NCBI GenBank assembly: GCA_038087875.1
Contig: CM075989.1
Span: 24,368,001-24,432,000 of the forward strand
From: Malacoraja senta
Lineage: Eukaryota
DNA: 64,000 nt
Direction: 5' to 3'
Shown here piece after piece: positions 12,486-53,416 of the stretch (its first letter is position 1; each line of letters begins with the position of its first letter). The notes below the pieces were generated by a model. It was not told the DNA's origin, did no database searches, and was given only the letters and a program-made list of their open reading frames with translations. The position numbers and the translations under genes are program-made.

Positions 12486-12955
12486 GTAAACCTGTCCACC
12501 ATTAAATCCTCCCTTTGATCTGGTATTTTGTTGGTTCACATGCTTGATCAATGAATGGTGTTTTATCATTAATGTCTTATTATTATTAATGTTTAGTGTT
12601 TTCTGAGTGATTCGTAACTGTCACTGTATGTCATGTTGTTACTTGTGGGCGGAGCACCAAGGCAAATTCCTTGTATGTGAGTACTAGGCCAATAAACTTA
12701 CTTACTTACTTACTTAATCAATGCTCTTTAACGCAGATAAAGAATGAAAGAGTTGGAACCCGTTCCTCAGGGATTTTTCTGTGATATTTTCAGGAGAATT
12801 ACGTAATTAAAAAAAGAAAAACAAGCCTAAAAAGTTTACACAAGTTTGAGAGTGAGGGGGAAAGATTTATTGTCATAATAAATTAAAAACAGGACAATGG
12901 AATTCAGAACAATGAAATTCTTACTTCCAGCAGCATGACAGATATGTAAACATAG

Positions 12956-13176
12956 ACACAAAATGCTGGAATAACTCAGTGAGACAGGCAGCATCTGTGG
13001 ATAGAAGGAATGGGTGACGTTTTGGCTCGAGACCCTTCTCCAGTCTGAAGAAGGGTCTCGACCCGAAACGTCACCCATTCCTTCTCTCCAGAGATGCTGC
13101 CTGTCCCACTGAGTTACTCCAGCTTTTTGTGTCTATCTTCGGTGTAACCAGCATCTGCAGTTCCTTCCCACACACT
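12956..13176. mobile_element. Fold-back Penelope pLTR element
   Basis: About 90-bp inverted arms centred near 13043. TSD taaacatag at 12947 and 13177. Confidence 0.88.
13045..13072 (+). ncRNA. Minimal hammerhead ribozyme-like core
   Basis: CTGAAGA-A-GGGT-CTCG-ACCC-GAAA-CGTC, inside a fold-back pLTR element. Confidence 0.7.
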
Positions 13177-33912: not shown

Positions 33913-34318
33913 TGATTGTCCGTGGGAAAGTCAAATGTTGCTTCGTTGTGACATGGGATTTAAATATCCTCGTGTTGAAAAGATTTCATGCATAATGAAT
34001 GTTGAATCTGCGAGTCCTTGTTTCGAGTCTTTTATTTCTGTGCGAGTATCTTACCTATAAATAAATACTGTATTTATTTCAGCCTGACTATGACAGCTTA
34101 ATGATGTGAAATGAACAAGAACACAAAGCACAAAGTGCTGGAGTATCTCAGCGGGACAGGCAGCATCTCTGGAGAACGTGGACAGGTGACTTTTCTGGTC
34201 AGGACTCTTCTTCAGACTGATTGTTGGGGGTGGGGGGAGAGGGATTTGGGCCAGACGTAGGCAAATGGGACTAGCTTAGATGGGGCATGGACGTCAGACT
34301 GATCAAGGATCCTGAACA

Positions 34319-34580
34319 GAAACGTCACCTATCCATGTTCTCCAGAGATGCTGCCTGACCTGCTGAGTTACTCCAGCACTCTGTGAAACGTCACCTATCC
34401 ATGTTCTCCAGAGATGCTGCCTGACCCGCTGAGTTACTCCAGCACTCTGTGAAACGTCACCTATCCATGTTCTCCAGAGATGCTGCCTGACCCGCTGAGT
34501 TACTCCAGCACTCTGTGAAACGTCACCTATCCATGTTCTCCACAGATGCTGCCTGACCCACTGAGTTACTCCAGCACTCT
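34319..34580 (+). repeat. 66-bp tandem array (4 units) of a pLTR segment, within a fold-back element at about 34130-34615
   Basis: Unit gaaacgtcacctatccatgttctccagagatgctgcctgacccgctgagttactccagcactctgt starts at 34319, 34385, 34451 and 34517. Confidence 0.95.
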
Positions 34581-36326
34581 TTTTTTTTGTTATAAATCAG
34601 TACCTGCAGTTCATTTCTATAGAAATATAAAGCACAGCATGTTCTGTAAACACATAATCAAGGAGAAATTATGAATAGGGGAGTTTCTGCAGCTGTTATT
34701 AATTGTCTTTTGGATGTGAATATTAAAATCCTAATATTGAAATATTGGCTAAATGTGAGGGTTCATTAAGAAGTGAATTTGGAAGCGATAACTTTGAAAT
34801 GCAATTGCTGCTGGGTGAATTGTTATTTTTAAATGAGATAATTATACATATTAGTAAGTTATTAAAGGGGTATGGTGCTAAGGCCAAGGTGTAGAATCAT
34901 AATGGAATATTATAATTGAATAATGGGGTTGGGCCTGAGGGAGGTTCATTGAATATACTTGGCTTCTCAGCCCCACCAGTAATTCTGAACCAACTACTGG
35001 GTTTAGAAAAGAGTTACTTCATCTAATAGCTTCTAGCTAATTATATGCAAATTGTGACACCATAACAATTTCCAGTAAACATCATGGGGTTGGGCGTCTT
35101 GGGACAGTCTAAAGGGTAGGGTGTTCGTGGTTGTTCTCTCAGCCCATCAAACTCGCTTGGAATCTGGCCCTAAAAATGGGTCATTGCATATTTTCACGTT
35201 CCAAAATGCCCTGCTGGTATTGCCTCACAGCGCCAGTCCCGGGTTCGATCCCGATCACGGGTGCTGTCTTTACGGAGTTGGTACATTCTCCCTATGACTG
35301 CGTGGGTTTTCTCCGGGTGCTCCGGTTTTCTCCCACACTGTAAAGACGTGCAGGTTTGGAGGTTAATTGGCTTCGGTAAATTGAAAATTGTCCCCAAGTA
35401 AGTAGGATAGAACTAATGTAAGGGGTGACCGCTGATCGGCGTGGACTCTGCGCTGTATTTCTAATACATTTCTAGCATCACATGCTGTTCGGTTAATGAT
35501 ATTCTTTTTCATGTAGGCCTGTTTGAACTGTTTTAAAATATCTGATTCTCTCAGGTGCAAGAATCTGAACCCTGCCACTATTTTTTTTATTTAGGATTTC
35601 AATTAAAGAACATTGCCTGTCTATTATGAAGTACTATCACACAATTTACCACGATCAATAATATGGGGTTGTAGGGACAGGTGTCAGCTGTTTACCTTGT
35701 GAGCACCTCACACCATTCAGTGAGATGCTGGGTACTTTGTGATCAAATTCCATACAGCTGTCTTTGTTCCATATCCCATAACACTTGTGGGTAACAAAAG
35801 TTTAGCACCTTCCTTGTTAAAATTAATAATTAATCTAAAGCCAATTTTGCATGTGGAATGTTTCCTATTTTTCACAGTCGCTTGGGACACATAATTACCA
35901 AAATAAAATCTTCTATAAATTTCCTTTTTTATCTGGAAAACTTAGAGTGATAGAGTCACAGATACAGTGTGGAAACAGGCCCTTCGGCCCAACTTGCCCA
36001 CACCGGCTAACATGTCCCAGCTACACTAATCCCACCTACCTGCTTTTGGTCCATATTTGTCCTATCCATGTACCTGTCTGTTTCTTAAACGTTGGGATAG
36101 TCCCTGCCTCAACTACCTCTTCTGGCAGCTTGTTCCTTGCACCCAGCACCCTTTGTGTGAAAAAGTTACCCCTCAGATTCTTAGTGAACCTTTACCCCTT
36201 CACCTTAATCCTATGTCCTCTGGTCCCCAATTCACATACTCTGGGCAAGAGACTCTGTGCATCTGACCCAGCTATGCAATAAAAATGAACGTCAAATGCT
36301 AGTTTATGCCAAAGATAGACCCAACA

Positions 36327-36650
36327 TGCTGGAGTAACTCAGCAGGTCAGGCAGCATCTGTGGAGAACATGGATAGGTGACGTTTCACAGAGTGCTGGAG
36401 TAACTCAGCGGGTCAGGCAGCATCTGTGGAGAACATGGATAGGTGACGTTTCACAGAGTGCTGGAGTAACTCAGCGGGTCAGGCAGCATCTGTGGAGAAC
36501 ATGGATAGGTGACGTTTCACAGAGTGCTGGAGTAACTCAGCGGATCAGGCAGCATCTGTGGAGAACATGGATAGGTGACGTTTCACAGAGTGCTGGAGTA
36601 ACTCAGCGGGTCAGGCAGCATCTGTGGAGAACATGGATAGGTGACGTTTT
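36327..36650 (-). repeat. 66-bp tandem array (5 units), same unit in the opposite orientation
   Basis: tgctggagtaactcagc starts at 36327, 36393, 36459, 36525 and 36591; an inverted arm follows to about 36733. Confidence 0.95.
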
Positions 36651-37684
36651 GTGTCCGACCCAAAATGTCACCTGTCCATTTTCTGCAGAGATGCTGCCTG
36701 ACAAGGTGAGTAATTCCAGCACTCTGTGTCTATAGTAAAGAATCAGAACATGTTCACCTAGCACTGAATGATGCCTTTAAATGAAAAATATGGAATATAT
36801 AAACAACATTTTAATGAACAGAGAAGTCCAAACTTACTTTGAAATGATACGGAATCAATACTGTTATTTACCAACATTTTTATTGTAAATATTGACATCA
36901 ATTTTAAATACTCTGCTACCGAGGATTTTTTTTTAATTGTACAAAGAATGATTATGCTACAGATAAAGATCTGCATCAGAATATTTCTAGTAATTACATG
37001 AATGTGATTAATTCTTCTGTTTTTTACTGTCATTTCATTTTAAGATACTACTGATAATTAGGGAAAATTCAAAGAAAGGATCTGCTGTGAAACTTTTGTG
37101 AATATATTAGGTGGAAGATCACCTGATTATTTATGGTTTATTCTTTATTATAATATATTAAGATCATATTCTTCTTTGTGGCCAATGCATTAAAGAACGG
37201 AGCCTTATTTTAATCACTGTCAAGCAGCAATATATCTACATTTTACAGGAAAATTAAGAGGGAATGCTAGAGATTTAAAATAAGGCTGAATTGTCAGGCA
37301 TTGAATAGATAGTACAGAAATTGTACATATGCATTATTGTATGTTGTTGGTTAGCCAAATTACAACAGCTATAGTTTAAAATATACTAATCATCAACAGT
37401 GTAAAATAAACCTGAAAATAACTTGGAAAAATATGTTGCTTCTGATATTTTGAAGGATTTACTCCCTTCATTAAAGCAAAATACATTAATAGACTGAATT
37501 TCTCACATACATAGTCATCATTACCAGAATAAATTATGATTACAAGGAGAGAAATAAAAATCAATGTCACTGCCTTTGGCAGAATAGTGTAAAGGGATTA
37601 TAATTTGAATTACAAAATCGGAATAGGTTTGATATTGTCTAATGAATGCAACATAATTAACATCGGAAGTTACATTTCTAGATA

Positions 37685-40377: not shown

Positions 40378-41246
40378 CTGTAGATAACAAAATAAGAATC
40401 AAATGTTACTGCAAAATACACTTTTAGTGTTTTAACTTCTTAATCATTTCTTTGGTAGAGAAAGGATTCTTTTTTTAAGTGTATCTCGACAGAATACACA
40501 AGAATGCCTACTATATTCTGTTGTGCTGAAGCAAAGCAAGAATTTCATTGTCCTATCTGGGACACATGACAATAAACTCTCTTGAATCTTGAATCTCTTG
40601 TAAGCAAATGGAATCCCAGAGACTTTAGCTTTCTAATATTTGTAACATTGGAGTCTATTTGCTGCCAGCTTAAAGATTAAACCTGCTGTCCTAGGTAGTG
40701 AAAGAAAAAAGAGAAAGGGGGAGAAAGAGAGAGAGGAAGGGAGAGAGGGAGAGAAAGAGAGAGGATGTTTCTTTCTTCACTTTACCACATATGGAGGCGT
40801 CCATTAATCTTGGTGTTGTGACTAGTAACAGAATTGATATCCTTGTCCATCCTCGCGTATCTATTTGAACTCAGCTCAAATGGGAGCTTCTTGAATCCTT
40901 GGATTGGAAAACCTCTTTGCATTTGTCGATATCAGGTATATCAAGATTGGTGCTGGTGAATCTTGGAGTCCACTCCAATATCTGTCGAGCTATTCATCTT
41001 AACATTGGATTGAATTTCAGCTGCGGTTAGATTTTATAGTCAGCTCCCGCAAGATATGAATGATGATATTCCTCCGTGTGCTGGCTGATTTGTGCTGGTG
41101 TAGTACTTGTGGAATCATTTGCACTTGCCATGGGCGAGTTGGAAAACAAATGCAATTCATATTTTAGATAGACACATTTTTGCAAAAGCCATGGACATGA
41201 AGATCACATACCTGTGGCAATGCGACTAACATCTGTCTGGCTTAGT

Positions 41247-41274
41247 CTGAAGAAGGGTTTCAATCCGAAACGTC
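41247..41274 (+). ncRNA. Minimal hammerhead ribozyme-like core
   Basis: CTGAAGA-A-GGGT-TTCA-ATCC-GAAA-CGTC; stem II is retained through a G-U pair. Confidence 0.6.
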
Positions 41275-42246
41275 ACCAATTCCTTCTATCGAGAGATACT
41301 GCCTGTTCCGCTGAGTTACTCCAGCAGTTTGTGTCTATCTAAAGTCTCAGGAGTTCCATGTAGCATCAGTTTAGCACATGTTTTTATTGGCTTATAAATT
41401 TTGAAACATGTTCTCTGACGAAGAATTTATGCGATTCACTCCGCACTTGCTCACCGATACTCAGACCACTCGACACATGTTAGGCCTTCGAGCAATACAT
41501 CCCACTTGAAGTGTTTTCTAAGTTGACTGCATAATTTCAAAATGCTGCACACAATTAAAAGTCATGAAATGTCAAACAATTTACAAACAAACTTTCTTTC
41601 TCGCAGTTCCTGCTGATTTTCATCAATCATAAAGAATATGAAAAATCCAAACAGATTAAATCAGGATGAATCATGTATTCTCAGGCACTTCTTCAGTTTA
41701 AGTTATACTTCCGATATGAGTGAACAGAGGAAAAACACTGAATGTCTGCGTTATTCAGCTGAAAATGAGTGCAGAACACTAATTTAAAACGTGAGAAAAT
41801 CTGCGTGTTGTCAAATAGAAGTTATAAAATAATTCTCTCTAAAGAATAATGGCACTTAAAACCCCCCACCCCCACATCAGTCTGAAGAAGGGTCTCGAAC
41901 CAAAACGTCACCCATTCCTTCTCTCCAGAGATGCTTCCTGTTCTGCTGAGTTACCCCTCCAGCATTTTGTGTCTACCCTCTATAACTACTCTCTATAAGT
42001 AATCAAACAGTTTTATGAAGTCATGCTTAAGTCATGTACAGAAAGTCCTGTTAGCTGCCTACATACGTTACTATACCATGTACTTAGCTCATGAGGCCAA
42101 GGACCAGTTCTGCTTTGTGATACCAGAAGTAAAGTTGCACAAATAATAACATCAGTGTAAAGTGTACTTGAAATGTGCTAAATAATTGTACTTATACATC
42201 CACATGTGCCTTACAGATATCCAAACTATTGTCTTAAGACATTTAC

Positions 42247-43120: not shown

Positions 43121-43550
43121 AGTGCTGGAGTAACTCAGTGGGTCAGGCAGCTTCTGTGGAGAACATGGATAGGTTACGTTTCACAGAGTGCTGGAGTAAC
43201 TCAGCGGGTCAGGCAGCATCTGTGGAGAACATGGATAGGTGACGTTTCACAGAGTGCTGGAGTAACTCAGCGGGTCAGGCAGCATCTGTGGAGCGAAGGA
43301 AATGGGCAACCTTTCGGGCCGAAACCCTGAAGGAAATAGGCAACGTTTCGGCCCGAAACCCTTCCGGGTTTCGGCCCGAAACGTTGCCTATTTCCTTCGC
43401 TCCATAGATGCTGCCGGAACATGGATAGGTGACGTTTCACAGAGTGCTGGAGTAACTCAGCGGGTCAGGCAGCATCTCTGGAGAACATGGATAGGTGATG
43501 TTTCGGGTTGAGACCCTTCTTCGAACTGATACCCTTCTTCGGACTGATTG
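43121..43550 (-). repeat. 66-bp tandem array (4 units) interrupted by a palindrome of a second pLTR subfamily
   Basis: Units at 43123, 43189, 43255 and 43445; inverted repeat at about 43278-43415. Confidence 0.9.
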
Positions 43551-43737
43551 TAGGAGGGGGGAGGTGAAAGCTGGAAGAGAAAGCCTGTACTAATGTTGGG
43601 ACCAGGTACTTTGTAACTTGGTCAGCACTCTTTATGTGGCGACGATTGCATGCCTTTGGTACACAAGCAAAGAATTTCACTGTGACTTGTCACATGTGAC
43701 AATAAAGTATTCAATCAATACACAGCACTGTTTTGTA

Positions 43738-45003
43738 CGTGGGAGGTCGTGCCTGATTAATTTTTTTGAAGACCTGACCTAAAAGGTCGATGAGGGCAGA
43801 GCTGTAGATGTTGTGTACATGGACTTCAGTAAGGTGTTCGACGAGGTGCCGCATGGTAGGCTGCTCTGGAAGGTTAGATCGCATGGGATCCAAGGAGAGA
43901 TAGCTGAATGGATAGTAAATTGGCTCCATGGAAGGAAGCAGAGGGTGATGGTGGAAGGTTGCCTCTCGGAATGGAGACCTGTGACTAGTGGTGTGCGTCA
44001 GGGTTCGGTGCTGGGCCCGTTACTGTTCGTCATCTACATCAATGATTTGGATGAGAACATACAGGATGAGATTAGCAAGTTTGCTGTGATACAAAAGTTA
44101 GCGGTTTTGCAGATAGTGAAGATGGTTGTGAACGATTGCAGCAGGATCTGGATCGATTGGCCAGGTGGGCCGAGGAATGGTTGATGGAATTTAATAGAGA
44201 GAAGTGTGAGGTGTTGCATTTTGGGACGTCGAACAAGGGCAGGACCTACACAGTGAATGCTAGGCCTCTGGGTAGTGTTGTAGAACAGAGGGATCTAGGA
44301 GTACATGTACATGGTTCCTTGAAGGTCGAGTCGCAGGTAGATAAAGTGGTCAAAAAGGCTTTTGGCACTTTGGCCTACATCAGTCAGAGTATTGAGTATA
44401 CAAGTTGGGAGGTCATGTTGCAGTTGTATAAGACATTGGTGAGACCCCATCTAGAATATTGTTTTCAGTTCTGGGCACCATGTTATAGGAAAGATATTGT
44501 CAATCTTGAAAGGGTTCAGAAAAGATTTACGAGGATGTTGCCAGGACTAAAGGGTGTGAGCTATAGGGAGTGGTTGAGTAGGCTGGGTCTCTATTCCATG
44601 GAGCGCAGGAGGATGAGGGGTGATCTTATAGAGGTGTACAAAATCATGAGAGGAATAGATCAGGTAGATGCACAGAGTCTTTTGCCCAGAGTAGGGGAAT
44701 TGAGGACCCCGGAGGACATAGGTTCAATGTGAAGGGGAAAAGATTGAATAGGAATCCGAGGGGGTAACTTTTTCACACAAAGGGTGGTGGGTGTATGGAA
44801 CAAGCAGCCAGAGAAGGTAGTTGAGGCTGGGACAATGCCATCATTTAAGAAACAGTTAGACAGGTACATGGATAGGACAGGTTTGGAGGGATATGGTCCA
44901 AGCGCAGGCAGGTGGGACTAGTTTAGTTGGGACATTGTTGGACGATGTGGGCAAGTCGGGCCGAAGGGCCTGTTTCCACGCTGTATGACGCTATGACTCT
45001 ATG
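43738..45003 (+). mobile_element. 5'-truncated CR1-clade LINE (HER1-like), frameshifted RT and 3' UTR
   Basis: [14 protein letters not shown]...[34 protein letters not shown] and RRRMRGDLIEVYKIM. Tail gggccgaagggcctgtttcc...tatgactct. Confidence 0.95.
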
Positions 45004-45822
45004 GCTCTGTGACTGGAGATGACAACGTGAGCAGGGTTGAGGATGTGGCAGGCAGCACTGGTTCTCCCTGGTCAGAGCTGCAGACGCATGGCCCCACTTT
45101 ACAAATGGCTATTTGTCAAGATAATGGGGGACTCAACACTCTTCAATCTGCACTTTGGCAGGAGATAGGAAGGGAAGGAGTTTAAACTGAACCTGTCTGT
45201 GTTGTCAATTTCTCTTTTGTACATAGATAACAAAAGAGTTTAGTCAACTCTTGGTTTCCAGGGAACACTCTATAGCAACCAAACTTTAAAACAACATGCA
45301 AAATATCACCAGCGCACCAAGTACCTTTGGTCTCTTTTAACAGGCAACTTATTTTAAATATGTCAAAAGAAAAGTTATTTCTAAACAACAAGATAGATTT
45401 TGCACTTTGGAGTTAGCAGTAAATTGCATTCAAAGTACAATAGTTTATTTATTGATTTTACGCTGCAATTTTCTGTTTAATTTCAACTGATAGTCAGAAG
45501 TATAAAATGTTCTGTAAACTGCACAATGGGAAAATACCTTATAATGCAAGATTTTTTTGTGATACTTTTAAGAATGGTAACCAGAAGACTACTGTTTATT
45601 AAATTTAAAATGGGTTGACCAGAACAATAATCAGAGCTCCTCATACACTCACAGAGTGATCCTGAGCTTCTGGCCTGATGCCGTTGTATTTCACCATCCT
45701 ACTCTGACTTTTCTGTCAGTGCTCACCAACACTGCTATAACGAGATTCAAGGCAAGCTTGACAAACAACCATTTTAATCAATGCATATTTCAACCTTAAG
45801 GACTCAACAGTGTCTAACTACT

Positions 45823-46978
45823 CCACTACAAACCTACCGACTCCCATGGCTCCACTACAAACCTACCGACTCCCATGGCTCCACTACAAACCTACCGACT
45901 CCCATGGCTATCTGGACTACACTTCTTCCCACCCTGCTTCCTGTAAGGACTCCATCCCCCACTCCCAATTCCTCCGTCTACGCCGCATCTGCTCCCAGGA
46001 TGAGGCGTTCCACACCAGGGCATCTGAAATGTCCTCATTCTTCAGGGAACGGGGGTTCCCCTCCTCCACCATAGATGAGGCTCGCACCAGGGTCTCTGCC
46101 ATACCCCGCAACACTGCTCTCTCTCCCCATCCCCCTACTCACAACAAAGGCAGAGTCCCCCTAGTCCTCACCTTTCACCCCACCAGCCGTCACATACAAC
46201 AAGTGATCCTCCGTCAGTTTCGCCACCTCCAACGTGACCCCACCACTCGCCACATCTTCCCATCTCCCCCCATGTCTGCCTTCCGCAAAGACCGCTCCCT
46301 CCGTAACTCCCTTGTCAATTCTTCCCTTCCCTCCCATACCACCCCCTCCCCTGGTACTTTCCCTTGCAACCGCAAGAGATGCAACACTTGTCCCTTCACC
46401 TCCCCCCTCCACTCCATTCAAGGACCCAAGCAGTCGTTCCAGGTGCGACAGAGGTTCACCTGCATCTCCTCCAACCTCATCTATTGCATTCGCTGCTCTA
46501 GATGCCAGCTGATCTACATCGGTGAGACCAAGCGGAGGCTTGGCGATCGTTTCGCCGAACACCTCCGGTCGGTCCGCAATAACCAACCTGAACTCCCGAT
46601 GGCTCAGCACTTCAACTCCCCCTCCCATTCCGTATCTGACCTCTCTGTCCTGGGTCTCCTCCATGGCCACAGCGAGCAACACCGTAAATTGGAGGAAATG
46701 CACCTCATATTCCGCTTGGGCAGTCTACATCCTGGGGGCCTCAACATTGAATTCTCCCAATTCTGCTAGCCCTTGCTGTCCCCTCCCCTTCATCAGCCAT
46801 CTGGTTGTCTCCTCCCCTCCCCCAGCCCTCGGGCTCCTCCTCCGCCTTTGTCCTTTTTTCCTTTCTTCTCCCCACCCCCTATCAGTCTGAGGAAGGGTTT
46901 CGGCCCGAAACGTTACCTATTTCCTTCGCTCCATAGATGCTGCTGCACCCGCTGAGTTTCTCCAGCATTTTTGTGTAC
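45823..46978 (+). mobile_element. 5'-truncated Penelope-like retroelement: RT C-terminus, GIY-YIG endonuclease and 3' pLTR
   Basis: Open frame to 46769 with YKPTDSH..YL and NLIYCIRCSRCQLIYIGETKRRLGDRFAEH (GIY-YIG). Perfect 15-bp TSD CAGTGTCTAACTACT at 45808-45822 and 46979-46993. Confidence 0.92.
46887..46914 (+). ncRNA. Minimal hammerhead ribozyme-like core in a Penelope pLTR
   Basis: CTGAGGA-A-GGGT-TTCG-GCCC-GAAA-CGTT: catalytic core boxes, 4-bp stem II, palindromic AACGTT in place of stem III. Stem I is weak. Confidence 0.7.
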
Positions 46979-47437
46979 CAGTGTCTAACTACTATCTACC
47001 TCTTTGGTGACCCTCAGACTATCCTTGATCGGACTTTGCTGGCTTTACCTTGCACTAAACGTTATTCCCTTATCACGTATCTGTACACTGTAAATGGTTC
47101 AATTGTGATCATGTATTGTCGTTCTGCTGACTGGATAGCATGCAACAAAAACTTTTCACTGTAACTCGGTATACATGACAATAAACTAAACAAATTAATT
47201 AAACTAACAAACCTTTCCTATCTACGCAGCTCTCTAGAGGGCTTTCAAATGTTGTTATAATACCTGTATTGACAACCTCCTCAGGCAGCTTATTCTATAC
47301 AACCATCACCCTTTGTGTGAAAAAGTTGCACCTCAGATTCCCATTAAATCTTTCCTTTCCCCACTCACCTTAAATCTATGTTCTCTGGTTCCTGATTCAA
47401 CCTACTCTAGGAAAAAGACTGTGCATTCACCCTATCT

Positions 47438-48360: not shown

Positions 48361-49210
48361 ATCCTTTTCTCGCCTTTCCCTGCATATCCATGTGCCTGTC
48401 CAAAAGTCTCTTAAACATCACTTTTGCATCTGTCTCCACCACCATTACTCCTGGCCTCCTCCACCCTTTAAGTAAAATACCTGTCCCGTCCAATTCCTTT
48501 TGCCCCTCTCACCTGTGAGCTATACTCTCTAGTATTTGTTTTTTCCATCCTGGGAAAAAGGTTCTGGCTGTCTATCCTATCTACGCCTCTCATAATTGTA
48601 TATACTTCGATCACATCTCGCCTCAACTTCTGGTGTCCCAGGGAAAACAACCCAAGTCTGTTCAAACTCTCCTGTAGCTAAAACTCATTAATCCAGACAT
48701 CATACTCGTGAACCTCCTCTGCACCCTATCCAAAGCCTTCTGCAATGCGGTGACAGTATTACGTACAATACTCCATATGTGGCCCAACTAATTTAAAACT
48801 AGAAGCTAGCTCCAGACAATTGTCCTTCACCCCAATTCAAGTCCACTGCTATTGTGTTTCATCAGAATGTACTGTGCTTATTTTTAGGCACATGAGGAAA
48901 GAATCTTAAGGCAGTTTTCGTTTTGTGTTCCAGCATAACTTTTAAAATGATTTGTCGTTGAAAGTTCCCAACAAACTGATTAATGGGGTCCAAAGTTTCT
49001 ACAAATAATTCAGTTTAAATACTCTTAATATCTATTTCTCAGCATTTAAAATTGGACTATTATTGGACAGCTGACATAGGTTAAAAATATTATTTTTGTG
49101 AAAAGTAATTCTCAGAATGTCACAGTGTGGAAACAGCCCACTGGGTCCATGGTGACCACAAGCACCCATTCACACTATTCCAATGTTATTATTCCCCATC
49201 CCCTATCAGT

Positions 49211-49238
49211 CTGAAGAAGGGTTTCGGCCCGAAACGTT
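49211..49238 (+). ncRNA. Minimal hammerhead ribozyme-like core
   Basis: CTGAAGA-A-GGGT-TTCG-GCCC-GAAA-CGTT in a solo pLTR fragment (about 49195-49340). Confidence 0.68.
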
Positions 49239-52200
49239 GCCTATTTCCTTCGCTCCATAGATGCTGCTGCACCCGCTCAGTTTCTCCAGCATTTTTGTGT
49301 ACCTTCGATTTTTCCAGCATCTGCAGTTCCTTCTTTAACACTTATTATTCTCATGTTGCCATCAACCTCCCCACACAATTTGCAGAGGCCAATTTACCTA
49401 CCAACCTACTTGTCTTTGGGACATACAAAGAGACCAGGGGACTGGTAACATGCAAACTCCACATAGAGAGCTTTAAATATCAAGATTGAAGCCAGATCAC
49501 TGGAGGTGTAAGGCACCACCTCTATTCACTGTGCTACTGTGTTATCTCTTAAACAAGTCTTAAGACAAGTACAGATTTTACTGTATTGTGTACACTTCAA
49601 TCCAGAAACTGTGGAAGATACAAGTCTATAGTGACTCCAAGACCATTATGGTGCAAGCTCAGGGCAACAGTGGGTACAAGATTCATGTTGCTACAGAATT
49701 ACTGAATGGAGTGAAGATTGAATGGGGTGCTTTAAGAGAGGATTGCGTTGCAATGTGGGGACTGTTCATGATCCCGTGACAGAATATCACAACAGCTATA
49801 CATTTATATATATATATCAGTCATTTCATCGAATGTCATAATACAGACAGAAAACAGTCACATCAAAGCTGAAATCCTGAGAAATTATCCAGATTTGAAA
49901 AGTCAAAGAGAGTGATTTTGTGGCTTCAAAAAGGACAGCAGGAAAGAGGAACCATCCAGTGTCTGCTGCGACTCCAAGTGTTAGACAGTGTGAGAGCAGA
50001 GTTGCAAAGATCCTGAACCTTGGGAAGCAATCAAAGCAGACATTGTCACAACCAAGTTTGTGTTATCTAGCTTATATAACTATAGTAATTACAACTACAT
50101 GAATTATTAGTCCAGTGATAATTTTTATGTAGACTGGATTCTTGAGCGATTGGTAAGCATTAAACCTTATCTCATCATTTTGCAAGGACAAAAATATGAC
50201 AATCGTGTGAAGCTTGATACATTATTCTGCCACCATAGCAAAGTCTGAAACATGATATATCCATTTACGACGATGTGATTATATTACTCGGCTCCTGTAG
50301 ATCTTGAACATGCTGACAGGCAATGGTCTTGGTTGGAAAACATCCCAACATTACACTGATTCTGCTTGAGCACTTGACGTTGTACAGCCAACAGAGCTGA
50401 GCACCAAGGTTGAGAAGTTGAATTAAACTGAATAGCTCCTGAGCTAAGTGATGTATTTTGGTGCTGTAAAACTTGGTGATAAAACCACTCAATCTTCATC
50501 TATCTTCCAATTAACACGTTTCACTTACACTTTTTCTACTTTTTTCATTTATCTGTTTTCTACTTTAAAGTACAAAACAGATAAAGATTGACATGAGTGG
50601 TTACAGCAAATGGGAATTTTAAAGGCACAGGGCCCTTGGGGAGAATGAAAACTAAATCTCAGCACTATCTTAAATGGGCAACCTTTTTAAACATTTACCC
50701 CATGTTCTAAATTCTCCCAGAACACAAAACATCTTCTCATATCCAACTTGTCAAGACCCCTCAACATCTTCAAATGCTTTACTATGGTTTTGAATATCAG
50801 TCCCCACAAGCCTTTCCTCATTCTCTGGGTGTTTGCTTATGGGATCAGAACCACCACTTAAGAATGCTTGCTACTCTTTATTATACATGCCATTAATATT
50901 TTATCTCTTCAAATTTTCATTGAAATGGAAAAACATTCCTTCATCTATTCAGCTACATTCCATAATCTGCAGTTAGATTTAGCTCTTAGGGCTAACCAGA
51001 ATCAAGGGATATTTGGAAAAAGCAGGAACGGAGTACTGATTTTGGATTTTGGATGATCAGCCATGATCATATTGCATGGCAGTGCTGGCTCGAAGGCCGA
51101 ATGGCCTACTCCAGCACCTATTTTTCTATGTTTCAATGTTTATATACTTTATATTTCTGCCGCTGTGCTGAAGGTTTCCCAGATACCTAAATTATGTTGT
51201 GTTTTAACACAAAACTCCACTAGTTTGGTATACAATTACTAATACAAGTGTTGTTCCAGTATAAAACTTTTATTTTAAGTGAAGCTGGAAGTAAAACGCG
51301 CTGATGTTGATGGAAGTAATTCTAGACAGTTTGGCTCTCTGAAGGTGTCACTAATGAGAGGGACAAGTCAAGCAGGATTCTTTAAATATCAAAGTAAGAA
51401 GATCGATATTGATTTAAAGCAGACCCAGTTACACTAATGGTCACTTTTTAATTTTGAATTAATTAAATGACAAATTGTCTGAAAGTATCATAACTTCAAA
51501 TTTGCTTTGAAAGAGGAATAAATATTTCTTACATTTTCTCTGATCTTGTGAAGGAACCAGAGATTTATATTCATCTGACTGATTTCAGGAGACACCAAAG
51601 GAACATTATTTGGTTCTTTGTATGGATAATTAGAGATTGCCATTTGGGACACTCATTAGCAGCAGAACAAAACGTTTTGTATTGTGTGGTACTTATATCT
51701 TTATATACACACTACAATGTCCAATACTAAATGAATTTTAAACTAGTTCCTATTCAATAAAATAAGATTCAAATTGTGAAACCATTGCAAGACAATATGA
51801 TGATACTGATGATGATATTTTATTCTCACAAGTGCCTCTGTACATAGGCACAGTGACAATCTTTGTTATACTATAAATCAGTGTTTCTTAAACTGGTGAA
51901 TGGTTCACCCAAGGATGAATGAGTTAATTTACGTTTTTTTGCTCATGTGACAAAATAAATTATATATAAAATTATACATAACGGAGAATAAGACGAAAAT
52001 TAGCAAAAAACAGAAGAAAATTTAGTCGAGGGTGAATTAAATTTTGTGATAAAAACTCAAGGGTGAATGACACTGAAATAGTTTAAGAAGCACTGCTATA
52101 GATTAACGTACTATAACAAAAGCTTTTCACTGTACCTCGGTACACGTGACAATAAACTAAACTGAGATAAGCACAACCATAGAAAAGTACAAAAGTGCAA

Positions 52201-53196: not shown

Positions 53197-53396
53197 NNNN
53201 NNNNNNNNNNNNNNNNNNNNNNNNNNNNNNNNNNNNNNNNNNNNNNNNNNNNNNNNNNNNNNNNNNNNNNNNNNNNNNNNNNNNNNNNNNNNNNNNNNNN
53301 NNNNNNNNNNNNNNNNNNNNNNNNNNNNNNNNNNNNNNNNNNNNNNNNNNNNNNNNNNNNNNNNNNNNNNNNNNNNNNNNNNNNNNNNNNNNNNNN
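53197..53396. other. Assembly gap (200 N)
   Basis: Run of N, preceded by C/T low-complexity sequence at about 53010-53196. Confidence 1.
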
Positions 53397-53416
53397 TGTA
53401 TTGTTATCATTTATAG

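What the first reader, a model, noticed from the sequence alone, without database searches (positions are those of the whole stretch)
46887..46914. Abundant repeat family carries a minimal hammerhead ribozyme core and belongs to Penelope-like elements
Seen: the motif CTGANGA-A-[4-bp stem + tetraloop]-GAAA-CGT(C/T) lies about 120 nt after the stop codon of a GIY-YIG ORF. It recurs intact at 13045, 41247 and 49211 and is decayed at more than ten other sites on both strands. Stem II varies but stays paired (GGGT-CTCG-ACCC, GGGT-TTCG-GCCC, GGGT-TTCA-ATCC). Known: Penelope pLTRs carry minimal type I hammerheads whose stem III is reduced to a palindrome such as ACGU and which are thought to cleave as dimers. 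Inference: this genome holds very many such motifs, including sense-strand copies inside ADAMTSL3 introns. Caveats: stem I has only about 2 clear base pairs, and there is an extra A after CUGANGA.
Basis: partly seen in the sequence, partly recalled or inferred. Interest (0 to 1): 0.7.

Follow-up and report, generated by a model that had tools for sequence, protein, structure and literature searches.

The report
Penelope hammerhead at transcript's front end
This is an already known kind of minimal self-cutting-RNA motif carried by a very abundant Penelope-type jumping gene; most young copies begin just in front of the motif and span its cut site uncut, so it likely forms the first bases of the element's RNA and is predicted to cut poorly or not at all in this family.

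Summary
Observation confirmed. The motif lies 117 nt after a GIY-YIG stop codon in a young, 5'-truncated Penelope-like (Neptune/Nematis-type) insertion with a 14-bp target duplication. The genome holds 57,703 exact matches (control 0). It fits the published PLE minimal-hammerhead consensus, including the 'extra A'. 25 of 55 testable distant relatives carry it at the same place with covarying stems. So it is a new member of a known kind.

Two corrections. Stem II variation inside this genome is not covariation. Only 13045 lies in the ADAMTSL-like gene.

Added: of 100 young copies chosen by a downstream anchor, 39 start within 10 nt at the core's 5' foot, 91 span the cut site and 1 non-inverted copy starts near it. 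Four of 5 single extra bases at the junction are G. Likely the reverse transcriptase starts inside the RNA and runs off a capped start just before the core, on uncut templates. This family has only 2 bp of stem I, and a competing hairpin is predicted to mask the core, so cleavage is doubtful and untested. Two unchecked notes of this scan report the same pile-up in other genomes.

The parts
45809..45822 (+). left copy of 14-bp target-site duplication
   Evidence: identical to 46980-46993
45823..45909 (+). 5' junction of the truncated insertion: a 29-nt piece of the element present three times (likely re-priming by the RT)
   Evidence: sequence; double hits; cause inferred
45881..46769 (+). 3' part of the PLE ORF: RT thumb region, Cys-rich linker (CNRKRCNTC), GIY-YIG endonuclease, stop TAG 46767-46769
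   Evidence: 99-100% identical to the 40 best scored of 2,214 genome candidates
46882..46887 (+). initiator-like TCAGTC; predicted transcription start at 46884-46885. Also reads as the end of a pyrimidine tract plus CAG (splice-acceptor-like)
   Evidence: 5' ends of copies pile up here; initiator consensus recalled, not from a call
46885..46916 (+). minimal type I hammerhead motif: stem I 46885-46886 with 46915-46916; CUGAGGA 46887-46893; extra A 46894; stem II 46895-46898 with 46903-46906; GAAA 46907-46910; palindrome ACGU 46910-46913; predicted cut 46914|46915
46897..46911 (+). competing hairpin (6 bp, 3-nt loop) predicted to sequester the GAAA core in the young subfamily
   Evidence: prediction only
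46917..46979 (+). rest of the pLTR up to the first of two fixed 3' ends (+93); other copies carry a further ~35-nt tail
46980..46993 (+). right copy of the target-site duplication
49193..49341 (+). short copy of the young subfamily with tail; motif at 49211
12949..13150 (.). head-to-head inverted pair of the older subfamily; motif at 13045 in the + arm; between Ig and PLAC exons of an ADAMTSL-like gene
41244..41340 (+). short, decayed copy of the older subfamily starting at the core's 5' foot; motif at 41247

Best explanation
The motif is the minimal hammerhead of a young Penelope-like retrotransposon's terminal repeat, and it likely forms the first ~30 bases of the element's capped RNA, which is likely copied into DNA uncut. 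Shown: identity, copy number, target duplications, two fixed 3' ends, the pile-up of 5' ends at the core's foot, and the motif's conservation with covarying stems in distant relatives. Inferred steps: (1) transcription starts 2-3 nt before CUGA at an initiator-like site, which leaves stem I only 2-3 nt of 5' strand; (2) the element's RT starts inside the RNA at +93 or about +130, as shown in vitro for the anole element; (3) started at the RNA's 5' pLTR it runs off the cap after ~95 or ~130 nt and yields the short copies, often folding back to give inverted pairs; started at the 3' pLTR of a read-through tandem transcript it yields long, randomly truncated copies such as 45823-46979; (4) in this family the RNA alone would cleave poorly or not at all; any cleavage would need a partner copy and probably the element's protein, and would decap the RNA ahead of the ORF rather than make the template.
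For: 5' starts of 100 young copies picked by an anchor at +51..+93 (C3 = +1; the first 100 of 20,083 matches, all on contig C1 0-9.7 Mb): 39 in -6..+3, 18 in +4..+26, only 3 in -99..-7, 31 further upstream, 3 in +27..+31 (2 of them inversion junctions), 6 in +32..+51. 49 of the 69 starts within -99..+51 fall in -6..+8 (p 1e-33 against uniform); 91 of 100 span the cut site. Genome-wide, only 7,165 of 19,101 exact young cores keep the 7 upstream bases. Of 600 copies, 43 gave a target duplication; the 19 with it abutting the element start at -2 to +9, mode -1, and 4 of the 5 single extra bases are G, as expected from copying a cap (cap signature recalled). 3' ends: 66 of 100 at +93, 33 at +124..+133, 1 at +109, like the two RT start sites of PAc (PMC11167929, results read). 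No homology at the 3' junction in 18 of 25. RNA reads of a related organism break off at -2 and -1 with unrelated flanks (558 and 614 reads), i.e. its transcribed copies have the same wall. Motif in 25 of 55 testable relatives (from a set at 35-51% protein identity); reverse strand 1 of 55, coding region 0 of 55, shuffles 0 of 1,100; covariation score 0.83 against 0.20 shuffled. Predicted stem II probability 0.57-1.00 in 15 distinct relatives but 0.00-0.04 in three window copies; the hammerhead fold costs 3-10.5 kcal/mol over the minimum. PAc uses unprocessed RNA, and its hammerhead cuts only with protein.
Against: No RNA 5' end was seen directly: run X24 (a related organism, about 6% read, fragmented poly(A) library) shows no place where many molecules begin or end. 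The cap-G count is 4 of 5. There is no TATA box upstream, and the site also looks like a splice acceptor; in D. virilis the start lies ~125 nt upstream of the core and an intron ends at stem I, so the layout is not universal. Part of the 7,165/19,101 drop is ordinary mutation or subfamilies with a different upstream base. Folding predictions ignore protein, dimers' tertiary contacts and co-transcriptional folding. The core and the GGG/CCC pairs are unchanged between the two main subfamily consensuses (3 changes in +1..+28, all at tolerant positions), which fits continued selection, though it is too few changes to test. The 15 relatives were picked by a descriptor that demands pairing, so one search is partly circular; 30 of 55 had no strict match.
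Confidence: 0.6

Rival explanations
1. One reading: the motif is an active dimer-cleaving ribozyme that cuts tandem precursors into unit-length RNA, the template for new copies.
For: All core nucleotides present; strongly conserved and covarying in relatives; tandem arrays exist, e.g. L033 with cores at 1165, 5309 and 8251; low dimer/trimer activity reported for a schistosome motif.
Against: 91 of 100 copies span the cut site and 1 of 68 non-inverted copies starts within +27..+31; stem I 2 bp; competing hairpin, and a predicted -24 kcal/mol inactive intermolecular duplex against -1.7 for ACGU.
Confidence: 0.12
2. The 5' wall is a 3' splice site (pyrimidine tract + CAG|TC), as with the D. virilis intron that ends at stem I; short copies come from spliced or splicing-derived RNA.
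For: The sequence reads as an acceptor; starts peak at -1/0; precedent in PMC4209133.
Against: Among 35 non-inverted short copies none is joined to an upstream part of the element as a 5' exon (2 sense matches, to tail and core); the 4 pairs with shared flanks appear to be insertions into the same host repeats or core duplications; target duplications abut the element directly. No GT..AG joint among the RNA joints listed (lists truncated).
Confidence: 0.1
3. The wall is set at the DNA or protein level: the endonuclease or bound element protein resolves or stops the cDNA at this site, whatever the RNA's start.
For: PAc protein cuts pLTR-junction DNA on both strands, and the tail has been ascribed to EN-mediated resolution. 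The stem II region is a near-perfect DNA palindrome.
Against: Ends trail off downstream (-2 to +9) from a sharp upstream edge, as for incomplete run-off; extra G; 31 of 100 copies read straight through the site. An RNA structure block would stop RT on the 3' side of the fold, not the 5' side (inference).
Confidence: 0.13
4. The short copies are a separate SINE-like master element that happens to begin at the core.
For: Short copies have their own target duplications; PLE-derived non-autonomous elements are described (bioRxiv 10.64898/2026.07.22.740005, parts 1-2 read). One hairpin copy did amplify as a passenger of another repeat.
Against: Short and long copies share both 3' ends and both +29 variants (A/G: short 17/38, long 16/15), and the wall recurs in older subfamilies. 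It would still need an RNA starting there.
Confidence: 0.05

Closest known systems
Minimal hammerheads (min-HHR) of metazoan Penelope-like elements, Cervera and de la Pena 2014 (PMC4209133; main text parts 1-2 of 4 and supplement parts 1-2 of 3 read)
   Same: Consensus CUGANGAH-G..C-GAAAN-palindrome-UH, extra nucleotide after A9, G10.1-C11.1, position in the pLTR, thousands of solo copies, pairs on opposite strands. The listed Acropora (Neptune) motif has nearly the same stem II.
   Different: Stem I only 2 bp (2 bp is listed for some others, e.g. D. virilis, Culex); 57,703 exact matches against about 9,000 in Xenopus by a different method; no cartilaginous fish among the Fig. S3 rows I read; the pile-up of 5' ends is not described in what I read.
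PAc, Poseidon element of the green anole (Frangieh et al. 2024, PMC11167929; parts 1-2 of 4 read)
   Same: Two internal RT start sites bounding a 30-40-nt tail; non-homologous priming; uncut RNA as template; no reads ending at the cut site.
   Different: PAc is Penelope/Poseidon clade and its ORF begins at stem II; here a Cys-rich linker is present and the first ATGs of a tandem copy are at +51 (41 codons) and +164. 5' ends of genomic copies are not analysed in the parts read.
EN+ PLE clades Neptune and Nematis (description in PMC8557442, passages read)
   Same: C-terminal GIY-YIG, CX2-5CxxC linker, tail, tandem and inverted arrangements.
   Different: No tree was built, so Neptune versus Nematis is not decided here.
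Animal non-LTR retrozymes (bioRxiv 10.64898/2026.07.22.740005, parts 1-2 of 5 read)
   Same: PLE-derived, hammerhead-bearing, non-coding copies; found there in the one cartilaginous fish sampled.
   Different: Those are tandem repeats with a full motif in each unit; here copies are dispersed monomers or inverted pairs, and the 66-nt tandem units in the window start inside the core and lack CUGANGA.

Membership tests
EN+ Penelope-like element | C-terminal GIY-YIG endonuclease | tested here: met
   Pfam PF01541 E 2.7e-4, just below the curated cut-off; YIGET motif and conserved Cys/His in 34 aligned proteins
EN+ Penelope-like element | RT upstream in the same ORF | tested here: met
   Longer genomic copies read RT motifs (KPADKGG, QGVAMG, YIDD) upstream of the same C-terminus, with frame breaks in individual copies; some homologs carry PF00078
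EN+ Penelope-like element | pLTR with optional 30-40-nt tail; tandem and inverted arrangements | tested here: met
   tail in 16 of 37 pLTRs, inverted partner in 7 of 30 loci; tandem in L033
Neptune clade | CX2-5CxxC linker between RT and EN | tested here: met
   CNRKRCNTC, invariant Cys; shared with Nematis
Neptune clade | RT phylogeny with reference Neptune elements | not tested
   no named reference proteins were in hand
PLE minimal hammerhead (motif) | core CUGANGA, GAAA, UH | tested here: met
PLE minimal hammerhead (motif) | nucleotide between A9 and G10.1; G10.1-C11.1; palindromic 15.2-16.2 | tested here: met
PLE minimal hammerhead (motif) | stems I and II supported by covariation | tested here: inconclusive
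   met across distant relatives (partly circular); not demonstrable within this genome; third stem I pair broken in both window subfamilies
Active hammerhead ribozyme | fold is populated | tested here: inconclusive
   prediction only: stem II probability 0.00-0.04; protein and dimer effects not modelled
Active hammerhead ribozyme | self-cleavage after H17 | not testable with these tools
   needs an assay; genomic ends give no sign of cut templates
Rfam hammerhead families | covariance-model match | tested here: not met
   none among 41 matches at E<=10
Non-LTR retrozyme | tandem units each with a full hammerhead | tested here: not met
   the window's 66-nt tandem units lack CUGANGA; not surveyed genome-wide

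The most novel reading that the evidence does not exclude
Tens of thousands of genomic copies form a fossil primer-extension map of a Penelope RNA: RT starts at +93 and about +130 and runs off a cap 2-3 nt before the hammerhead core. The hammerhead would then be the capped leader of the mRNA, its cut a decapping switch and not a template-making step, and this highly successful lineage would have largely disabled the switch through a 2-bp stem I and a newly perfected competing hairpin.
Probability: 0.4. Interest if true: 0.62.

Novelty: new member of a known kind. Interest (0 to 1): 0.36.

Why it matters
That Penelope pLTRs carry minimal hammerheads has been in print since 2014, so the finding as posed is ordinary. 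What the hammerheads do is still open (PMC8557442 passage). This family gives a testable handle: it predicts an exact RNA start, shows that templates were almost always uncut, and offers a natural pair of weak (this genome) and well-folding (distant relatives) versions of one motif for side-by-side assays. I found the 5'-end pile-up in no paper listed by my searches (listings and the passages named), but the library lacks most subscription papers and one key paper was not held.

Tried and rejected
Rfam: no hammerhead match. Covariation inside the genome: 421 aligned copies gave clusters of 173, 124, 47 (misaligned tandem units, set aside) and 12; the rest fell in clusters under 5; core positions are not better kept than flanks among copies, as expected for dead copies. 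A genome search for cores with a different stem II gave 713 matches (control 4), but all 30 loci read belong to the same lineage and 18 of 30 are one hairpin copy with an A.A mismatch carried inside another ~700-nt repeat, so it says nothing on selection. A first 5'-end histogram over mixed subfamilies (287 copies) and one over 37 young copies were set aside as biased by core-based sampling and replaced. An extended stem I was looked for by folding and not found. RNA: no RNA holder listed for this organism; X24 of a related organism shows both strands about equally over the short repeat and no pile-up of molecule ends. A start codon or intron for the ORF was not settled. PDB search of an RT-EN stretch: 0 hits. 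Viral contigs: no relative. Earlier findings by place and by sequence: nothing. Lunse et al. 2016 on dimer cleavage is not held; I know it only from a review's passages and reference list (PMC6765202). bioRxiv supplements were not seen and may list chondrichthyan families.

Full report
Numbering: C3 of the hammerhead (window 46887) is +1, the base before it 0; the predicted cut is +28|+29.

1. Observation. The motif is at 46887-46914 as written and recurs at 13045, 41247, 49211 and, unlisted, 11611 (-); 5 matches against 0.08 expected. It lies 117 nt after the stop of ORF 45762-46769, which hits GIY-YIG just under Pfam's cut-off. The genome has 57,703 exact matches to a degenerate 28-mer, control 0. 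Rfam's hammerhead models do not detect it.

2. The element. The insertion spans 45823-46979 between two copies of a 14-bp target duplication. It is a 5'-truncated member of a young family: 2,214 candidates, the 40 scored 99-100% identical. Copies end at +93 or after a ~35-nt tail (16 of 37); 7 of 30 loci have an inverted partner; L033 is a tandem with three cores. These are the hallmarks of Penelope-like elements (PMC8557442 passages; PMC3846280 passages). The Cys-rich linker points to the Neptune/Nematis type; no tree was built. The best named homologs are from sharks and rays at 52-75% identity, then corals and echinoderms, so the host is probably a cartilaginous fish (inference). Host context: Ig and PLAC exons on + up to 18417, SAXO exons on -, an EF-type GTPase on +; the names ADAMTSL3, SAXO2 and EFL1 rest on recalled human synteny. 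Only 13045 is in the first gene; pieces there are 9 on +, 8 on -.

3. Is it a hammerhead? By the published consensus, yes, the extra A included (PMC4209133). As an independent test I aligned 34 proteins, fetched 80 metagenome and 6 genome-collection loci at 35-51% identity (probably animal DNA in those assemblies) and scanned downstream of the ORF end. 55 of 86 had enough sequence; 25 of 55 hold a strict motif, 23 of them 81-142 nt and 2 about 300 nt after the ORF end; controls 1 of 55 (reverse strand), 0 of 55 (coding), 0 of 1,100 (shuffles). A relaxed look found further near-intact cores in some other loci. Fifteen distinct motifs plus two window copies align with an invariant core; 7 of 8 pairs show double changes, score 0.83 against 0.20, partly circular because the descriptor demanded pairing. 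Inside this genome there is no such evidence: the two main subfamilies differ at 3 of 28 motif positions (loop, a U-A/U-G pair, H17), copies decay neutrally, and the one abundant alternative stem II is a mismatched passenger in another repeat.

4. Is it likely active here? Relatives have 3-6 bp of stem I and a stem II probability of 0.57-1.00; the window copies have 2 bp and 0.00-0.04. In the young subfamily +11..+25 form a 6-bp hairpin that takes up GAAA; forcing the hammerhead fold costs 3-10.5 kcal/mol; the predicted self-dimer is an inactive long duplex. These are predictions. The anole element's hammerhead cut only with protein, so activity with protein remains possible.

5. Where copies begin. 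With an anchor downstream of the ribozyme (20,083 exact matches) I took the first 100. Starts: 31 upstream of -99 (10 ran to the end of the reference), 3 in -99..-7, 39 in -6..+3, 18 in +4..+26, 3 in +27..+31, 6 in +32..+51. 91 span the cut site; 1 of 68 non-inverted copies starts near it. Copies starting beyond +51 cannot be seen this way, and all 100 are from one end of C1; genome-wide, 7,165 of 19,101 exact cores keep the 7 upstream bases, an independent though cruder count. Of 600 copies 43 gave a target duplication; the 19 that abut start at -2 to +9 (mode -1), and 4 of 5 single extra bases are G; several others repeat the first ~9 nt of the core. No shared upstream exon was found among 35 short copies. 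Reads and contigs of related organisms show the same step in depth and loose ends at -5 to -1, but no true RNA end was visible.

6. Mechanism. Most likely (0.6): transcription starts at the initiator-like TCAGTC; the RT starts internally at +93 or about +130, as in PMC11167929; at the 5' pLTR this gives ~95/130-nt copies ending at the cap, at the 3' pLTR long truncated ones. Inverted pairs fit fold-back priming (32 of 100 copies have an inverted partner; self-priming was proposed in PMC3846280). Templates were uncut. Rivals: active template-making ribozyme (0.12), splice acceptor (0.10), endonuclease or protein-set end (0.13), separate SINE master (0.05). D. virilis differs: its mapped start is at 371 and the core at 496, with an intron between (the two numbers come from two papers and may not share coordinates exactly).

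7. Novelty. The motif-element link is known; this is a new member, with an unusually large count. The 5'-end pile-up was not in the papers my searches listed. I reached it before consulting the scan's notes (note); two unchecked notes report it in other genomes. Interest 0.36.

Noticed in passing
L211, L213, L214, L217-L221, L226-L229, L231, L235-L239 (centre ~1500): A ~700-nt repeat, itself apparently palindromic, carries an inverted pLTR pair in its middle and has amplified to several hundred copies (most of 713 matches): a Penelope hairpin captured by another mobile element.
   Followed up: partly
window 34295-34576, 36309-36655, 43123-43328: 66-nt tandem arrays derived from the pLTR (+21..+87), lacking CUGANGA; a minisatellite born from the repeat, also seen in L112-L116.
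   Followed up: partly
L170, L196, L148; L139/L105, L181, L037: Independent insertions fall at nearly the same positions of host repeats (CR1-like, by recall), which suggests a target-site preference of the endonuclease.
   Followed up: no
L132, L151, L191, L196 5' junctions; window 45823-45909: Short duplications of the element's 5'-most bases at junctions, as if RT re-primed on the template after reaching an end.
   Followed up: partly
position +29 (window 46915): A/G variation at the base after the cut site: short copies 38 G to 17 A, long copies 15 G to 16 A; subfamily mix or A-to-I editing, not tested.
   Followed up: no
L033 1215-1340 and 1328 onward: A 41-codon upstream ORF starts at +51 in the pLTR and overlaps the main ATG at +164; a donor-like site lies at their overlap, so an intron may fuse them.
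   Followed up: partly
L272, L277, L288, L289, L304, L310, L312: One distant family has a TATA-like box about 40 nt before the core, which would again put the start a few bases before stem I.
   Followed up: no
L320-L325: Penelope-like elements sit in two assemblies labelled as bacterial MAGs; probably host-animal contamination.
   Followed up: no
window 43711-45000: A CR1/L2-type LINE RT fragment (weak RVT_1 hit) lies just upstream of the element; 200 N at about 53,200-53,400 mark an assembly gap near a GC-rich region between the SAXO-like and EF-like genes.
   Followed up: no
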